From Promethearchaeota archaeon (GTDB lineage: Archaea > Asgardarchaeota > Hermodarchaeia > Hermodarchaeales > Hermodarchaeaceae), in assembly GCA_048938385.1 (NCBI GenBank), contig JBHLMG010000003.1:85190-128752 (forward strand): a stretch of DNA of 43,563 nucleotides, in the 5' to 3' direction. Positions 4,562 through 9,926 of this stretch are shown in pieces. The notes beneath the pieces are model-generated. The model ran no database searches. It saw only the letters and a program-made list of their open reading frames with translations, and had not been told where the DNA came from. Positions within the stretch are counted from its first letter, which is position 1, and each line of letters begins with the position of its first letter. Both the position numbers and the translations under genes were made by a program.

Positions 4562-6487
4562 GTGCGCCGCCAACTCCTCGGATTCTCACTGATTATCGTC
4601 TTAGCTGCTTTACCACTACTGCCTTCTCTCATGGGTATGAATCCCGTGACACCTGCAGTAGTTATTGCTCTTCCCCCCATTCCAGGACCCAACGACCTCA
4701 ACGCGACGACGCCAGAAATTATCTACGAAGAATACACACCTGCGAATCCTAGTGGCAATTCGTCGCTCATTAGTATTATAGTGTCCTCAGTAACTGCGTC
4801 AGATATCGGGGAATGTCGTACAGGTGACTTGCTTAACCATACATTCCACATACAGTTTGCGGCCAACACCACGGAAGTTTGGCAAGATGACCTTCAATAC
4901 GTCTCAGGTGTCGGTTGGGCAGCCCTCAACTATAGTCTGCTCCCGGTTTTTCTCGGTGGTGAAAAAAACTACACAGCGTATCGAATAAATTGCTTCTTTG
5001 CACGCGATAGTGGAATCGAAATATGGAATACGACAACCGATTATTCAGCGAGCTTTTTCTACTCTCATCGACTTACTATTGGAAAACCAGATTTCACCTA
5101 TATCGCTGACACTTCCGATACCATTGATATCGTTATAGGACATATCTCGAGCACCATCTGGGGACAACTCACCCAAGCAAACCACACCCTCGCCATTGTT
5201 CAAAAATCGAATACTTCGAATGTGTTACAATTCACAAACTTGTTAGTGTACAATGCCTCCTCGACCGATTGGGAATATAATGAACTTAACATATCTGCGT
5301 TGATACCCGGTGAAATCTATACAATCCGGGTAAGTGGAAACTATTCTCTGAGATACCCTTTCCATTCTGGTACGAGTAGCATATCCGATGAGTTCACATT
5401 CAGAGGTCCTTTCCTCCGTGTGAGCAATCCTATAATTCTCTATATTGGGAGAGATATACAAACGCTGAACATTACTGTACTTACAGTATGGCATTCTGTC
5501 TTTGGCTACCTTACGGATGCAGATATTAGCATCGCCAACTTCAGTATCTATCTGGCCTCAGGTGGAGTAGCTCTCGTAACCAATATCCTCACCTACAATA
5601 GCACAGGAGGAAACTGGTATCTCGCAGATTTCAATGTAAGTGAGTACATCGAACAGGGATCCCTCCTCATCGGAGAATATTACAATGTGTCGACCTTCTT
5701 CCATGCACCTAGTCAAAGTGGCCGAGTTGCTGTTAATGCAACAAGTCCCTTCTCTGAACCGTTTCTTATCGACCGTGATCCACCTAAGGTAGAAACAGCC
5801 TTTACTACACCGAGTTCTCCCGATGATGACGATTTCGTTATCATCACTGGGACAGTATCCGATGATGCACTTGTGCATACTGTGATTTGCAGTTATTATA
5901 ACGGGACCCAATGGATCAATGTCACCATGCGCGGTCATCGCGCAAAACTTGCTGACTTTACCACTACCCTTCCAGCTTTTCCTGAACGATCCATCATTCA
6001 GTACCGCATCTTTGTCAATGACACTCAAAGTGCGTGGACTAATTCATCACTCTTCTCCTATACTGTGGTTGATACGCCTCCAATCATCGCGTATGTATCC
6101 TATCTTCCCAATACTCCTAGGGATACTGACCAAGTAGTTGTAAATGCCACTATCACAGATGGCACTGGCGTGAACCGTGTCCAACTTTCCTACTCCTTCG
6201 ATGGTATTACTTGGATAACCATCGATATGCAACTTATCAGCGATTCTGTGTACCAAGCGACAATTCCTGCACATGGGTTATTGCCGAGTTATCAATTCGA
6301 TTCCGTTCTGTTCCGGGTTGAAGCCTTCGATGTCTACGATAATATGCGGCAATCCGCTGACTATGCCTACATCGTTCGAGGAACCATGCTCTCCATTGAT
6401 CCAATTACAGGTCTCCTTCTCTTGAGCGCTTTTGCACTTGCAGTGGTTGTTATCATCGTCTTGCTTAAAATCTATGAGCAGTTCTAA
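4562..6487 (+). CDS. Secreted, C-terminally anchored surface glycoprotein with Ig-like repeats
   Basis: Signal-peptide-like N terminus, many N-x-S/T sequons, two DxxPP...P..P.D.D repeats, C-terminal TM helix. Confidence 0.8.
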   Translation: MRRQLLGFSLIIVLAALPLLPSLMGMNPVTPAVVIALPPIPGPNDLNATTPEIIYEEYTPANPSGNSSLISIIVSSVTASDIGECRTGDLLNHTFHIQFAANTTEVWQDDLQYVSGVGWAALNYSLLPVFLGGEKNYTAYRINCFFARDSGIEIWNTTTDYSASFFYSHRLTIGKPDFTYIADTSDTIDIVIGHISSTIWGQLTQANHTLAIVQKSNTSNVLQFTNLLVYNASSTDWEYNELNISALIPGEIYTIRVSGNYSLRYPFHSGTSSISDEFTFRGPFLRVSNPIILYIGRDIQTLNITVLTVWHSVFGYLTDADISIANFSIYLASGGVALVTNILTYNSTGGNWYLADFNVSEYIEQGSLLIGEYYNVSTFFHAPSQSGRVAVNATSPFSEPFLIDRDPPKVETAFTTPSSPDDDDFVIITGTVSDDALVHTVICSYYNGTQWINVTMRGHRAKLADFTTTLPAFPERSIIQYRIFVNDTQSAWTNSSLFSYTVVDTPPIIAYVSYLPNTPRDTDQVVVNATITDGTGVNRVQLSYSFDGITWITIDMQLISDSVYQATIPAHGLLPSYQFDSVLFRVEAFDVYDNMRQSADYAYIVRGTMLSIDPITGLLLLSAFALAVVVIIVLLKIYEQF

Positions 6488-6700
6488 TCGTGCTAACATT
6501 GAATCGACGATTAGCACGCCCTACCCATTTTTTGCTCCTGTTGTAGTGGATTTACCATACCGCAAAAACCGCTACAAGACGAATCAAAGGCACAAAACCT
6601 TTTTAATAATCCATCGCGGTGTTTTTTTAAAGGCAGAGATGGTGTGAAAGCAGGGGAAAGAACACCTTGTAGACCGCCTTTCTGCGTAAGGTGAACGCCT

Positions 6701-7009
6701 GTGATCGTACTCGAATATCAAGATGGGACATTCATTGAATCAAAGCAAGGCGCAGGGGGTATCCGCTGCGAAGTTGACAAAACGAGCAAAAAGATCAATG
6801 TCATCATGCCGCAGGGGACCAACCTGATTGAACGCCGTACCGCTTTACGCCTGGCCGACACCATTGCGCGGAGTGGATATCTCCTTTCCACAGGTGAACG
6901 CGTTGGTCAAGGTTACCAACTTGTCATCGATGAAAAGGGTAGTGCGATTCCAGAAAGACTGAAAGTTAGTCCAAGGATCAGTTATAGTACAACTACGAAA
7001 CCTGAATAG
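6701..7009 (+). CDS. Hypothetical protein, possible single gelsolin-like domain
   Basis: GTG start with SD AGGTGA at 6689-6694; VDKTSKKINVIMPQGTNLIERRTALRLADTI resembles the gelsolin strand-strand-helix pattern. ORF is solid; fold call is inference. Confidence 0.55.
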   Translation: MIVLEYQDGTFIESKQGAGGIRCEVDKTSKKINVIMPQGTNLIERRTALRLADTIARSGYLLSTGERVGQGYQLVIDEKGSAIPERLKVSPRISYSTTTKPE

Positions 7010-7109
7010 TAAGTAAACGAATGAATAGGAATAGCTTGTCCCTCTGCGAGATGGTTGAACATCAACTATGGAAAAAATGGTACAAACTAGAAGAATCGAG
7101 GTGAAAGGT

Positions 7110-7271
7110 GTGAGTGAAGACAATTTCAGCGAAGAATTGAAGCGGGAAATTAGAGAAGGAGCTAAGCTCCAAAGCGCACCTAAATCAAAGAAAGAAGAAA
7201 TAGACCTTTCTGCTGAGAAAGCGCTGCTTGAGAAACTGAGGGCTGAAGGCAAACTCGAAGAGGAGGATTAG
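7110..7271 (+). CDS. Small charged peptide with WH2/beta-thymosin-like motif
   Basis: ORF track starts at 7068, but GAGGTGA SD at 7098-7104 favours GTG at 7110 (53 aa); ELKREIREGAKLQSA fits the WH2 pattern LxxxIxxGxxL. Confidence 0.55.
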   Translation: MSEDNFSEELKREIREGAKLQSAPKSKKEEIDLSAEKALLEKLRAEGKLEEED

Positions 7272-7338
7272 GATTCAACTCTCTCCGGCAGCCCTTTTCT
7301 TTCATTAAGTATCTTCTTCCAGCCTACTTAATTCGAGA

Positions 7339-8214
7339 TCATACATTTGGTATTATGGGTATTTTTTGATATTTTTTGATGCGTGATTTGATTTCTTCAC
7401 GAAGGGTTTGATAGACTGGTCCTGTGCGGAGTACCCATTCTGAGAAATGTTTTGCCATGGCTTCGGGGCTCCATCGATCCTTTTGTTCTTCCTTCTTCCA
7501 TGTTATTGTAGAAATGCCTTCATGGTATTGAAGGGTGCCTTGGGCTAGACACAGTTGGCACTCTACCATGTTTTCTTGACGCAACTGGAAAAAGGGTGTC
7601 CCACATTGAGGGCATGCATTTGAAGGAATTGGTAAGGGGCGCACAGCATTGGGGTTATCAACAAACTCCAATAACTTGTCACCAATTAATTGCACTCGTG
7701 CCATCGTGTCTTTATCTAATAGGACCTCGCCAGGGCCAGGGCGGTAGGCAGTAAAGCGATCTACTAGGTCAAGCTGGAGTATCCCTGCGAGCATAGAGAG
7801 CATGGGGAGGGTGAATGGATCCCAATCACGCAATCCGGCTGTTGCGATGATCGCTCCAGGGCGTCGTTTCTTCCTCCCGAGTTGGAGACTGTATTCGAAT
7901 AATCGGTCAATAAGAAGTTTGATGCTCCCTGCTGGGCCAAGGAAGTAGGTAGGAGCGGAGAGAATGATGGCGTCAGCCCATTCCAAGTGCTCCCATAAGG
8001 TGTGCATATCGTCAGGTAATCGGCAGAGCTCCCCTTTCATCACACACGCTAGACATCCCTTACACGGTTGTAACTGGAAATCAGGTAGTCTAAGAGCACG
8101 CACCTCTGCTCCCTTCTCTTGCACTTGAAATAAGGCTTCCTTAACTAAGACTTCACAATTTCCCAGCTTACGAGCGGAACCAATGACGCCAAGCACCTTC
8201 AATAGGGTCACCAC
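7339..8214 (-). CDS. Flavodoxin-fold iron-sulfur flavoprotein (FMN_red family) with C-terminal Zn ribbon
   Basis: GSARKLGNC, CKGCLAC-x5-C-xx-DDM, ADAIILSAPTY; C-terminal CPQC...CQLC. Confidence 0.85.
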   Translation of the reverse strand: MVTLLKVLGVIGSARKLGNCEVLVKEALFQVQEKGAEVRALRLPDFQLQPCKGCLACVMKGELCRLPDDMHTLWEHLEWADAIILSAPTYFLGPAGSIKLLIDRLFEYSLQLGRKKRRPGAIIATAGLRDWDPFTLPMLSMLAGILQLDLVDRFTAYRPGPGEVLLDKDTMARVQLIGDKLLEFVDNPNAVRPLPIPSNACPQCGTPFFQLRQENMVECQLCLAQGTLQYHEGISTITWKKEEQKDRWSPEAMAKHFSEWVLRTGPVYQTLREEIKSRIKKYQKIPIIPNV

Positions 8215-8261: not shown

Positions 8262-8549
8262 CTAGTAGCTAATTTCGAAGCGGTGAAGATTTGGATTCAC
8301 AGGAATTTCTATAATTGTGACATCATCAACTTGTGATGAGGGCGACCCTTGGTGTAGAAATTGGATGAACTCATCTATGGATATTTCAATTCCTTGCACC
8401 TGGCATTCAACTGTTCCATCCGGATTATTCCTCACCCATCCTGCTAGATTGAGTTCATTGGCTTTATCACGCGTATAGGCTCGGAAGAAGACACCCTGGA
8501 CGTGTCCCTGAACGAGTGCTCGAATTGCACGCAACAGAATGGACCTCAA
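8262..8549 (-). CDS. acyP: Acylphosphatase
   Basis: GHVQGVFFR and GWVRNNPDGTVE signatures. Confidence 0.95.
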   Translation of the reverse strand: MRSILLRAIRALVQGHVQGVFFRAYTRDKANELNLAGWVRNNPDGTVECQVQGIEISIDEFIQFLHQGSPSSQVDDVTIIEIPVNPNLHRFEISY

Positions 8550-9056: not shown

Positions 9057-9926
9057 TTAGGCTGGAGGAAATGCAACCTCAGCAGCAGCTCCCATGAGGG
9101 TCTTGTAGAGCAAGTCTTTGTTGCGCGGGTCAATGGCTACTAGCCCGATCGTACGAAGACCAAGTAATCGAGCGACGGTATCGGGTAGTAAGGCATCCTT
9201 GAGATCTTGCTTGTTTGCAATAGCCCAAATCAGAGCACCATCAGTCCATTTTTGGATAATAGGTAGTAGTTTCCGTGTGGACATCACATTCTTCAGAGTA
9301 GAGTCACACACCATCAACACCACATCGGTTCCTCGCAAATAGTCCTTCCACTTCGGCACAAGCAACTCTTGTCCTGGAAAATCCCATACAGCAAGTTCGT
9401 AGGGTCCGAGTTTTGCTGTTTCCATTTCCTCCACATATACTGCCATAGTCGCATAGTGGTTGAGGTCTGCACGTTTTCCCACCAGCATTTTGAGAATAGT
9501 GGTTTTACCGACGCCTCCTTCGCCTAAAAGCACTACTTTTAGCGTGGAGACAATTGCTTTGTCGAGGATGGGTCCAATTCCTTGAAATACTGCTGAATTT
9601 CGGTTACTTTTAAACTCCCAAATCTGCTTGGCGAATTTTTGTTTGATGGTTCTAACGCCTGCCTCGATTTTTTCCTGTAGAATTTCATCTTTATCCTGGG
9701 GGTCAGCAATTAAGACAAGGATGAGGTCGCTATCGACATGTTTGTGAATGAATTTCATGTTATCCACAAAAATGGGTACCAAAACATCAGAGCCTGTGTC
9801 TCGTTCTAGTTGGCGGAGGGATTGGATGTATTCTGCAATGATTGGTTGATCGACTTCAATTGCCCAGTAGGAGCGATGAAAGAGTTTGATGCCGTTTCTC
9901 GTTAAAAGCAGGACATTGTGAATCAA
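9057..9926 (-). CDS. Longin-domain + Arf/Rag-like small GTPase fusion
   Basis: N-terminal ~125 aa longin pattern (MIHNVLLLTRNGIKLFHRSY); G1 GEGGVGKT, G3 WDFPGQ, G4 NKQD. Confidence 0.88.
   Translation of the reverse strand: MIHNVLLLTRNGIKLFHRSYWAIEVDQPIIAEYIQSLRQLERDTGSDVLVPIFVDNMKFIHKHVDSDLILVLIADPQDKDEILQEKIEAGVRTIKQKFAKQIWEFKSNRNSAVFQGIGPILDKAIVSTLKVVLLGEGGVGKTTILKMLVGKRADLNHYATMAVYVEEMETAKLGPYELAVWDFPGQELLVPKWKDYLRGTDVVLMVCDSTLKNVMSTRKLLPIIQKWTDGALIWAIANKQDLKDALLPDTVARLLGLRTIGLVAIDPRNKDLLYKTLMGAAAEVAFPPA

What the first reader, a model, noticed from the sequence alone, without database searches (positions are those of the whole stretch)
7110..7271. Stand-alone WH2/beta-thymosin-like micropeptide
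Seen: MSEDNFSEELKREIREGAKLQSAPKSKKEEIDLSAEKALLEKLRAEGKLEEED with a strong SD. ELKREIREGAKLQSA fits the WH2 layout (amphipathic helix LxxxIRxG, then LKKV/T-like motif; WASP reads approximately ALLDQIRQGIQLNKT, from memory). A linker and second helix ALLEKLRAEGKL follow, which could be a second WH2-like unit or a thymosin-type C-terminal helix, then an acidic tail. Size and low-complexity composition resemble beta-thymosins. Inference: an archaeal actin-monomer sequestering or nucleating peptide. Caveat: LQSA deviates from LKKT, and short charged helices can match by chance.
Basis: partly seen in the sequence, partly recalled or inferred. Interest (0 to 1): 0.8.

Follow-up and report, generated by a model that had tools for sequence, protein, structure and literature searches.

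The report
Thorarchaeal WH2-like peptide beside mini-gelsolin
A real, strongly conserved 53-residue protein of a Thorarchaeota family always sits just after a small gelsolin-fold gene and has the layout of eukaryotic WH2/beta-thymosin actin-binding peptides, so it is a good but untested candidate for an actin regulator in close archaeal relatives of eukaryotes.

Summary
Window 7110-7271 (+) is a GTG-started 53-codon gene with a Shine-Dalgarno site. It occurs in all 18 other genomes of its Thorarchaeota family and is under strong purifying selection (pN/pS 0.06-0.16).

Two context results raise the actin reading:
- The gene is always 57-122 nt downstream, on the same strand, of a ~100-residue protein. 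That protein's model matches gelsolin/cofilin domains, best the Thorarchaeota ProGel-actin structure (Z 9.7).
- The N-terminal half is homologous (hhalign 93%, E 3e-7, reciprocal best genome hits) to 50-residue mini-proteins of Loki-type Asgard families. This scan flagged those before on other DNA. Their unit is also fused to profilin and repeated in ~490-residue arrays.

Against: Pfam WH2 and Thymosin do not match. The LKKT position lacks basic residues. Designed TIM barrels match the same helix-Gly motif. The best-conserved C-terminal helix is unexplained.

Verdict: a real gene and a probable actin-system component. Direct WH2-like actin binding has odds of about one in two. It is a new variant of a known kind.

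The parts
7110..7271 (+). 53-codon gene of the WH2-like micro-protein (GTG start, TAG stop)
   Evidence: Orthologues in 18/18 family genomes. pN/pS 0.06-0.16.
7098..7104 (+). Shine-Dalgarno site GAGGTGA, five bases before the start codon
   Evidence: The same site type precedes the aligned start in all 19 genomes.
7119..7154 (+). N-terminal amphipathic helix (residues 4-15), with hydrophobic positions F6, L10, I14 at i, i+4, i+8
   Evidence: AF2 helix 4-15. L10 and I14 are invariant; position 6 is always F, L, M or I.
7158..7178 (+). G17-A-K-L20-Q-S-A23: helix cap and LKKT-like position in an extended stretch (L-x-[HST]-[AVT] in relatives)
   Evidence: Aligns in register with the G..LKKV of N-WASP WH2 units through the sister family.
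7203..7262 (+). Most conserved block, D32 to E51: N-cap DLS, a second amphipathic helix (AF2 34-45, pLDDT 88) and G47-K-L
   Evidence: Invariant columns. pN/pS 0.06. Helix.
7257..7268 (+). Acidic tail EEED (EEED to EEEEE in relatives)
6701..7009 (+). Upstream partner gene: 102-residue single-domain gelsolin-fold protein (ProGel/1DGelX type, no Trp), with a conserved tail P-x-R-L-[KTV]-x-[ST]-P-R
   Evidence: AF2 pLDDT 77.6. Best PDB matches 7c2f Thor ProGel-actin (Foldseek prob 1.0; VIA Z 9.7), then gelsolin, villin, fragmin and ADF-H. hhalign to the genome's 1DGelX-like protein: 87%, E 4e-6.
6688..6694 (+). Shine-Dalgarno-like AAGGTGA before the GTG of the gelsolin-fold gene
   Evidence: sequence only.
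6600..6609 (+). TTTTTAATAA, a possible archaeal TATA box for the two-gene unit (inference)
   Evidence: No comparable A/T box lies in the 100-nt spacer 7010-7109.
7295..7303 (+). T-rich tract after the stop codon, a possible archaeal terminator shared with the convergent FMN-reductase gene (inference)
   Evidence: No hairpin terminator was found.

Best explanation
The ORF encodes a 53-residue, largely unfolded two-helix protein made together with the small gelsolin-fold protein encoded just upstream. It acts on the archaeon's eukaryote-like actin.

Shown:
- The gene is real and under purifying selection.
- It forms a fixed two-gene unit with a gelsolin-fold gene.
- Its N-terminal half is homologous to a two-helix unit of other Asgard lineages. 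That unit also occurs fused to profilin and in tandem arrays.

Inferred:
- G17 ends the helix, and L20 to A23 run along the actin surface as the LKKT stretch of WH2/beta-thymosin does.
- The invariant second helix and acidic tail make a second contact, either on actin, as the C-terminal helix of thymosin beta-4 does, or on the gelsolin-fold partner.
- The likely outcome is sequestering or hand-over of actin monomers, in competition or cooperation with the weakly binding ProGel-type partner, which uses the same cleft.
For: 1. Real gene. It is in 18/18 family genomes, has an SD site and start codon in all, and shows pN/pS 0.16 and 0.06.
2. Layout. Helix 4-15, coil 16-33, helix 34-45. L10, I14 and L20 are invariant and G17 is in 19/21.
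3. Partner gene. It lies 57-122 nt upstream on the same strand in all 19 genomes and in three distant metagenome contigs. Its model matches Thor ProGel bound to actin at Z 9.7, followed by about 35 gelsolin and ADF-H entries. It is linked by sequence to the genome's 1DGelX-like protein.
4. Sister family. hhalign of the Thor profile against the Loki-type 50-residue family gives 93.1%, E 3.2e-7. Each profile's best hit in the other group's genomes is the small gene itself. The two families align end to end.
5. Profilin fusion. The sister unit lies in one ORF with a profilin domain (L160, L161). It is also repeated in a 492-residue protein (L162).
6. WH2 likeness of the sister family. The top PDB match of its profile is the N-WASP tandem WH2 chain 3m3n_W (E 2.2e-4), aligned L-I-G-L-V in register.
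7. Language-model look-alikes. The nearest named clusters are Thymosin (0.87, 0.85) and WH2 (0.79). These scores are below the 0.9 line, so this is a lead only.
8. Target site. The actin cleft residues used by gelsolin and cofilin are reported as largely conserved in Asgard actins (PMC7444086). This family's actin is eukaryote-like.
Against: - Pfam WH2 and Thymosin give no match to any of 21 members, nor to this place in a six-frame genome search at E up to 10.
- The two basic residues of LKKT are absent. The second position varies freely (D, E, A, Q, S).
- G17 is K in the two most distant members.
- The Thor profile and the merged profile do not find N-WASP in the PDB. All three profiles find designed TIM barrels with the same helix-Gly motif. 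Part of the likeness may therefore be a generic helix cap.
- The layout occurs about 10 times by chance in this proteome.
- The most conserved part is the C-terminal helix, which the WH2 model does not explain.
- The gelsolin-fold partner would use the same actin cleft and carries its own LKKT-like tail.
- The Loki-type sister gene lies between an acetyltransferase-like gene (named from sequence by eye) and a Pelota-like gene, not near actin genes.
Confidence: 0.47

Rival explanations
1. The peptide is a subunit or regulator of the gelsolin-fold protein and does not bind actin itself. Its invariant C-terminal amphipathic helix would dock on the partner, for example as a latch or adaptor that sets the partner's access to actin.
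For: - The gene pairing is strict in every genome and contig seen.
- The C-terminal helix is the best conserved part, pN/pS 0.06.
- The partner would occupy the same actin cleft that a WH2-type helix needs (PMC7444086). It also has its own LKKT-like tail.
Against: - The gelsolin-fold family is widespread in the phylum, in 141 of 201 genomes, with other downstream genes and no such peptide.
- The homologous Loki-type unit exists without a neighbouring gelsolin gene and is fused to profilin instead. This fits a shared target, actin, better than a gelsolin-specific one.
Confidence: 0.2
2. The peptide is a small charged helical protein with a role unrelated to actin, for example in translation or as a general binding tag. 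The WH2 likeness would be a generic helix-Gly-Leu pattern, and the pairing with the gelsolin-fold gene would be inherited gene order within one family.
For: - No WH2 or Thymosin profile matches.
- Designed TIM barrels match the same motif.
- The motif is frequent by chance.
- The sister gene sits next to a Pelota-like gene.
- All Thor genomes with the pair are kin, so the synteny is not made of many independent events.
Against: - Two independent links to actin regulators occur in two Asgard classes: a gelsolin-fold neighbour and a profilin fusion.
- The language-model look-alikes are Thymosin and WH2 only.
- The sister unit forms tandem arrays, as multi-WH2 and multi-thymosin proteins do.
Confidence: 0.2
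3. It is not a gene: a chance open frame in the spacer between a gelsolin-fold gene and a convergent FMN-reductase gene.
For: It is short, low in complexity and has a GTG start. An overlapping 135-codon antisense frame exists.
Against: - It is conserved in 18/18 relatives with an SD site and start codon.
- Synonymous sites are saturated while the protein is nearly unchanged.
- The protein is on record in metagenome collections, as 4 clusters.
Confidence: 0.01

Closest known systems
WH2 domain (Pfam PF02205), e.g. the N-WASP units in PDB 3m3n
   Same: A short unfolded module with a three-turn amphipathic helix carrying three hydrophobic positions, a Gly at the helix end, then Leu and, three residues on, Val/Ala in an extended stretch. 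Through the sister family it aligns in register with D-A-L-L-D-Q-I-R-Q-G-I-Q-L-K-K-V.
   Different: No match to the Pfam model. The second hydrophobic residue of the LL pair is K. The two basic residues after Leu are D/E/A/Q/S and H/S/T. It is a free-standing protein with a further conserved helix and an acidic tail. Common descent is not shown.
Beta-thymosins (Pfam PF01290; thymosin beta-4, ciboulot repeats)
   Same: A stand-alone peptide of about 45-55 residues: N-terminal helix, central L-x-x-T/V stretch, a linker of about 9-12 residues, and a C-terminal helix. The nearest named language-model clusters are Thymosin. The sister family forms tandem repeats, as multi-thymosin proteins do.
   Different: No match to the Pfam model. 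There is no LKKTET. The C-terminal helix is much more hydrophobic and better conserved than the N-terminal one. It ends in an acidic tail.
WH2-like linker motif of gelsolins (human FKHV; Thor LRRV, Heimdall LKHV/LRRT, Loki LVDV/LKDV; PMC7444086, PMC9433394, bioRxiv 10.1101/2025.11.30.690169)
   Same: An L-x-H-V type tetrad linked to a gelsolin domain in Asgard archaea. Many relatives of this peptide read LEHV, LAHV or LDHA. Non-basic variants of the tetrad are documented to contact actin, as with the calcium-bridged LVDV.
   Different: There the motif is part of the gelsolin chain, between two domains. Here it is on a separate 53-residue protein encoded after a single-domain gelsolin-fold gene, which has its own R-L-K-x-S tail.
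Arcadin-2 of Crenarchaea (PMC5173319)
   Same: An archaeal protein encoded next to actin-system genes. Its short C-terminal peptide binds the hydrophobic groove of crenactin and sequesters monomers, and its authors compare this to thymosin beta-4. It is the only archaeal precedent for this mode of action.
   Different: Arcadin-2 is about 200 residues, its binding peptide relies on a Trp, and it belongs to the arcade cluster of Crenarchaea. No sequence relation was tested or expected.
Loki-type Asgard 50-residue mini-proteins, their profilin fusions and ~490-residue arrays
   Same: Same size, same N-terminal motif ([FLM]-x2-[DE]-E-L-K-x2-I-K-x-G-x2-L-x2-[AVLP]) and a second helix ending L-E-K. 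hhalign 93%, E 3e-7, with reciprocal best genome hits.
   Different: About 21-33% identity to the window's peptide. The Thor branch has the DLSAEKALLEKLRAEGKL helix and acidic tail in place of a long K/E-rich helix. It has H/S instead of K at the LKKT position. It is tied to a gelsolin-fold gene, not to the acetyltransferase-like/Pelota-like neighbourhood.

Membership tests
WH2 domain (PF02205) | Match to the family profile at or near its cut-off (23.1 bits) | tested here: not met
   None of 21 members matches at E up to 10. A six-frame search of the own genome with PF02205 at E up to 10 hits only an unrelated place. In 201 phylum genomes there is one marginal match elsewhere.
WH2 domain (PF02205) | N-terminal amphipathic helix of about three turns with conserved hydrophobic positions (established: Chereau 2005, Hertzog 2004, as cited in PMC5173319) | tested here: met
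   AF2 helix 4-15. [FLMI]6, L10 and I14 are conserved at i, i+4, i+8.
WH2 domain (PF02205) | LKK[TV] motif: Leu, two basic residues, Thr/Val, shortly after the helix (PMC9433394, PMC7407642) | tested here: not met
   Leu is invariant and the fourth position is A/V/T. The middle positions are D/E/A/Q/S and H/S/T. Documented variants exist: LRST in WIP, FKHV, and LVDV in gelsolins.
WH2 domain (PF02205) | Binds an actin monomer in the cleft between subdomains 1 and 3 | not testable with these tools
No other route was tried.
Beta-thymosin (PF01290) | Match to the family profile (cut-off 24.8 bits) and the LKKTET signature | tested here: not met
   No match. The signature is absent.
Beta-thymosin (PF01290) | Free peptide with N-helix, central extended motif, linker and C-terminal helix | tested here: met
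   One search gives the secondary structure. The protein is 53 residues. No fused or longer form was found among 1.84 billion representatives.
Asgard WH2-like two-helix unit (Loki-type mini-proteins) | Profile-profile similarity and reciprocal best hits | tested here: met
   hhalign 93.1%, E 3.2e-7 over 28 columns. The Thor profile finds 52-68 residue ORFs in f9 and f33 at E 6e-5 to 1e-2. The Loki profile's best hit in five Thor genomes is the peptide gene; in the own genome at E 0.106.
Asgard WH2-like two-helix unit (Loki-type mini-proteins) | Homology of the C-terminal helix as well | tested here: inconclusive
   The two families align end to end, with L49 invariant. The significant hhalign stretch ends at residue 32.
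Gelsolin/ProGel fold (upstream partner, 6701-7009) | Gelsolin/cofilin fold | tested here: met
   Foldseek top hit 7c2f_B (E 8.5e-3, prob 1.0). VIA Z 9.7, then about 35 gelsolin, villin, fragmin and ADF-H entries at Z 4.3-7.9. Model pLDDT 77.6.
Gelsolin/ProGel fold (upstream partner, 6701-7009) | Match to Pfam Gelsolin (PF00626) and the DWG motif of ProGel/2DGel (PMC7444086) | tested here: not met
   No Pfam match at E 0.1. No PDB sequence match. There is no Trp at the motif. A sequence link exists only to the genome's 1DGelX-like protein: 87%, E 4e-6. That protein weakly matches PF00626 (E 0.081) and 7c2f (E 0.11).
Arcadin-2 | Sequence relation to the crenactin-binding C-terminal peptide | not tested
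   Considered as a functional analogue only (PMC5173319).

The most novel reading that the evidence does not exclude
A WH2/beta-thymosin-type actin-monomer-binding unit existed in Asgard archaea before eukaryotes arose. It survives in at least two classes: Loki-type lineages, where it is free, profilin-fused or in arrays, and this Thorarchaeota family. In Thorarchaeota it works in trans with a single-domain gelsolin. That would be a split version of the gelsolin-domain-plus-WH2-like-linker arrangement that is joined in one chain in two-domain and eukaryotic gelsolins.
Probability: 0.25. Interest if true: 0.85.

Novelty: new variant of a known kind. Interest (0 to 1): 0.68.

Why it matters
The known actin regulators of Asgard archaea are profilins and gelsolins. 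Free WH2/thymosin-type peptides are regarded as eukaryotic, and the papers found here mention only a four-residue WH2-like linker inside Asgard gelsolins.

A conserved free peptide with the WH2 layout, genetically tied to a mini-gelsolin in Thorarchaeota and related to a profilin-fused unit in other Asgard lineages, would add a third class of actin regulator to the pre-eukaryotic toolkit.

It can be tested directly. The peptide can be made synthetically and assayed with rabbit actin, as was done for the Thor gelsolins. It may also explain why ProGel alone binds actin so weakly in vitro (Kd 337 uM, PMC7444086): a natural partner may have been missing from those assays.

Tried and rejected
- **Complex prediction.** The tool does not pair a eukaryote-like chain with a microbial one. 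This gives no evidence either way, and no other route was tried.
- **Fused forms of the Thor peptide.** The profile search of 1.84 billion representatives found only four clusters of 57-67 residues.
- **Longer relatives of the Loki-type unit.** The 'longer' protein search found none, although genome searches did find fusions.
- **RNA evidence.** One metatranscriptome run holds contigs of a relative covering only part of the gelsolin-fold gene (6794-6959), and nothing on the peptide. Nothing can be said about expression.
- **Other PDB sequence matches of the Thor profile.** These were the ATP synthase alpha C-terminus (E 0.11), the SAM sensor and designed TIM barrels. All were judged chance or generic helix motifs.
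- **Weak Pfam hits** (GAAD E 0.026 and others) were judged noise.
- **The ~470-residue protein** that follows the gelsolin-fold gene in another family is not related to the peptide (hhalign 0.5%).
- **A 497-residue hit in L149** looks by eye like a carboxypeptidase (not checked) and was judged a chance match.
- **C-terminal extension of ~202-residue profilins in f9.** It carries an L-x2-I-K-x-G-x2-L stretch, but hhalign is not significant (0.6%).
- **Direct hhalign of the Thor profile against the profilin-fused unit** is not significant, because of a 4-residue insertion. The link is only transitive, through the Loki-type family.
- **MIM, UIM, RPEL, CPI and VCA-type readings of the second helix** were considered by eye. 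They were dropped for lack of the defining residues; for example, there is no Trp in the acidic tail.

Full report
**1. The observation**

GAGGTGA lies at 7098-7104. The window is part of contig 22 of a 2.48-Mb, 90% complete genome. Database names of close homologues of the neighbouring gene place it in Thorarchaeota.

**2. It is a real gene**

- A six-frame search finds the protein in all 18 other genomes of the family (14/14 in the genus, 4/4 in a second genus), at E 9e-19 to 1e-12.
- In each genome a GGTGA-type ribosome-binding site precedes an ATG, GTG or TTG at the aligned position. The in-frame ATG at 7068 is not conserved.
- Synonymous sites are nearly saturated (pS 0.71-0.86) while the protein barely changes. 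pN/pS is 0.16 for the N-terminal block and 0.06 for the C-terminal block.
- A profile search of 1.84 billion representative proteins finds only four clusters, all 57-67 residues, and no fused form.

**3. Anatomy**

- In 21 sequences, E9, L10, I14, L20 and the block D32-L-S-x-E-x-A-L-L-x-x-L-x-x-E-G-K are invariant. G17 is present in 19 of 21 and is K in the two most distant members.
- Position 6 is always F, L, M or I. The first helix therefore carries hydrophobic residues at i, i+4 and i+8.
- AF2 with this alignment gives helix 4-15, coil 16-33 and helix 34-45. pLDDT is about 65 for the first helix and 88 for the second.
- The tetrad after the helix reads LQSA here. In relatives it reads LDHA, LAHA, LEHV, LAHV, LSHA or LAST.
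- The second genus has one extra residue between G and L.

**4. The neighbour**

- The ORF 6701-7009, 100 nt upstream on the same strand, has no Pfam match but is highly conserved.
- Its AF2 model (pLDDT 77.6) matches the Thorarchaeota ProGel-rabbit actin structure 7c2f best: Foldseek probability 1.0, and VIA-align Z 9.7 over 74 residues.
- The next roughly 35 entries are gelsolin, villin, adseverin, fragmin and ADF/cofilin domains.
- By sequence it is linked (hhalign 87%, E 4e-6, 31% identity over 54 columns) to a 259-residue protein of the same genome. That protein weakly matches Pfam Gelsolin and 7c2f, and has the build of Thor 1DGelX.
- The genome also has two canonical two-domain gelsolins.
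- The pair, gelsolin-fold gene then peptide gene with a 57-122 nt spacer, is present in all 19 family genomes. It is also in three metagenome contigs that carry the two most distant peptide relatives.
- A TATA-like box lies about 95 nt before the first gene and none in the spacer. A T-rich tract follows the peptide gene. Co-transcription is therefore likely but not shown.
- The gelsolin-fold family itself is widespread in the phylum, in 141 of 201 genomes. There it has other downstream genes: a ~470-residue protein in one family and a small Ras-like GTPase in another.
- Its tail, [DE]-[RK]-L-[KRTH]-[HQK]-S-P-R-E-x-Y, is itself LKKT-like.

**5. Relatives of the peptide outside the family**

- The Thor profile, searched in 400 genomes of the phylum, hits small ORFs of 52-68 residues in two other families at E 6e-5 to 1e-2. 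All hits are over its N-terminal half.
- These are 50-residue proteins beginning M-P-Q-L-D-D-E-L-K-x-x-I-K-x-G-x-x-L-x-x-V (alignment A6).
- hhalign between the two families gives 93.1%, E 3.2e-7.
- The Loki-type profile occurs in 125/135, 13/14 and 4/4 genomes of three families. It hits 10 of the 14 other genomes of this genus at E under 0.01.
- In five Thor genomes checked, its best hit is the peptide gene. That includes this window at 7128-7235, although only at E 0.106.
- The two families align end to end without large gaps.
- The Loki-type unit also lies in one ORF with a profilin domain: L160, 256 residues, and L161, 251 residues. Pfam Profilin scores E 2e-4 and 1.3e-3, below the cut-off as is usual for Asgard profilins. 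The unit scores E 4e-11 and 7e-11.
- It is repeated in a 492-residue protein whose only Pfam match is WH2, at E 0.07.
- Earlier notes of this scan had flagged the Loki-type family. One later check stated it was absent from other Asgard groups. The Thor family found here is a divergent exception.

**6. Is it a WH2 or thymosin?**

By profile, no. Pfam WH2 and Thymosin match none of the 21 Thor members, none of the 11 Loki-type members and not this place in the genome.

By weaker measures the likeness is real but modest:
- The top PDB match of the Loki-type profile is the N-WASP tandem-WH2 chain 3m3n_W. Its E of 2.2e-4 is summed over three units, each aligned L-I-G-L-V in register.
- The Thor profile and the merged profile do not reach N-WASP. 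All three profiles match designed TIM barrels that carry S-E-E-L-K-x-A-L-K-A-G-A.
- The protein-language-model search places Thymosin (0.87, 0.85) and WH2 (0.79) clusters nearest among named clusters. These are below the level that counts as more than a lead.
- The bare layout occurs about ten times in this proteome, no more often than in shuffles.

**7. Mechanism**

The best-supported reading is an actin-binding two-helix peptide that works like WH2/beta-thymosin: the first helix in the barbed-face cleft, with L20-x-x-A23 along the surface. It acts together with, or in competition with, the ProGel-type partner.

ProGel alone binds rabbit actin very weakly (Kd 337 uM) at that same cleft (PMC7444086). 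Non-basic tetrads such as LVDV are known to contact actin in Asgard gelsolins (PMC9433394). Arcadin-2 gives an archaeal precedent for a short helix that sequesters an actin homologue through this groove (PMC5173319).

What the invariant second helix and acidic tail contact is open. It could be the pointed face of actin, as in thymosin beta-4, or the gelsolin-fold partner.

**8. Verdict**

It works like, and is laid out like, a WH2/thymosin peptide, and it sits in an actin-regulator context. It is not a demonstrable member of either family, and binding is untested.
- No paper in the searched library describes a free WH2-like protein in Asgard archaea.
- I rate it a new variant of a known kind. 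Odds are about 0.47 for direct WH2-like actin binding and about 0.7 for some role in the actin system.

Noticed in passing
L150:1413-2891 (-), genome G186; similar hits in at least eight genomes of genus g28: A ~492-residue protein with hydrophobic stretches that look like membrane segments carries E-E-L-K-K-K-I-E-K-G-I-Q-L-Q-H-E-E in its tail. This is a WH2-like stretch whose G-I-Q-L is identical to N-WASP. hhalign to the Thor peptide gives E 0.005, probability 7%. It may be a membrane-anchored actin-binding motif.
   Followed up: partly
L109, L110, L114 (family f21); L092-L102 (family f6): The small gelsolin-fold gene has other fixed downstream neighbours elsewhere. In f21 it is a ~180-residue Ras-like small GTPase. 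In f6 it is a ~470-residue protein that by eye has helical repeats, a beta-rich middle and a coiled-coil end.
   Followed up: no
L021 (G000 contig 15, 3-608): The eukaryote-like actin gene of this genome is cut by a contig end; only 202 residues are present. Actin lies at contig ends, or was not found, in about half of the genus's assemblies. This suggests a repeat or a strain-variable region next to it.
   Followed up: no
window 4562-6487 (+): A 641-residue protein with many N-x-S/T sequons and a C-terminal hydrophobic anchor has no Pfam match. It is conserved directly upstream of the gelsolin-fold gene throughout the family. It is probably a glycosylated surface protein.
   Followed up: no
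window 9057-9926 (-): A 289-residue protein has an Arf/Roc/Ras-type GTPase domain (residues 128-260) behind an N-terminal part that weakly matches the clathrin-adaptor small chain (longin-like).
   Followed up: no
L152-L158 (family f9): Profilin-domain proteins of ~202-211 residues have a conserved ~70-residue C-terminal extension. It contains L-E-W-I-K-D-G-E-G-L and ends E-L-R-Q-I-F-G-V. Its relation to the WH2-like unit is not significant.
   Followed up: partly
L132, L134, L137, L141-L148 (family f9): The Loki-type 50-residue gene lies between a ~155-residue protein that looks like a GNAT acetyltransferase and a ~356-residue protein that looks like Pelota (both named from sequence by eye). 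This order held in 10 of the 11 f9 loci read; L146 lacks the acetyltransferase-like gene.
   Followed up: no
window 7339-8214 (-) and 8262-8549 (-): An FMN-reductase-family protein with a C-terminal Cys-rich stretch and an acylphosphatase converge on the peptide gene. This neighbourhood is kept in the family and in the distant contigs L034 and L035.
   Followed up: no
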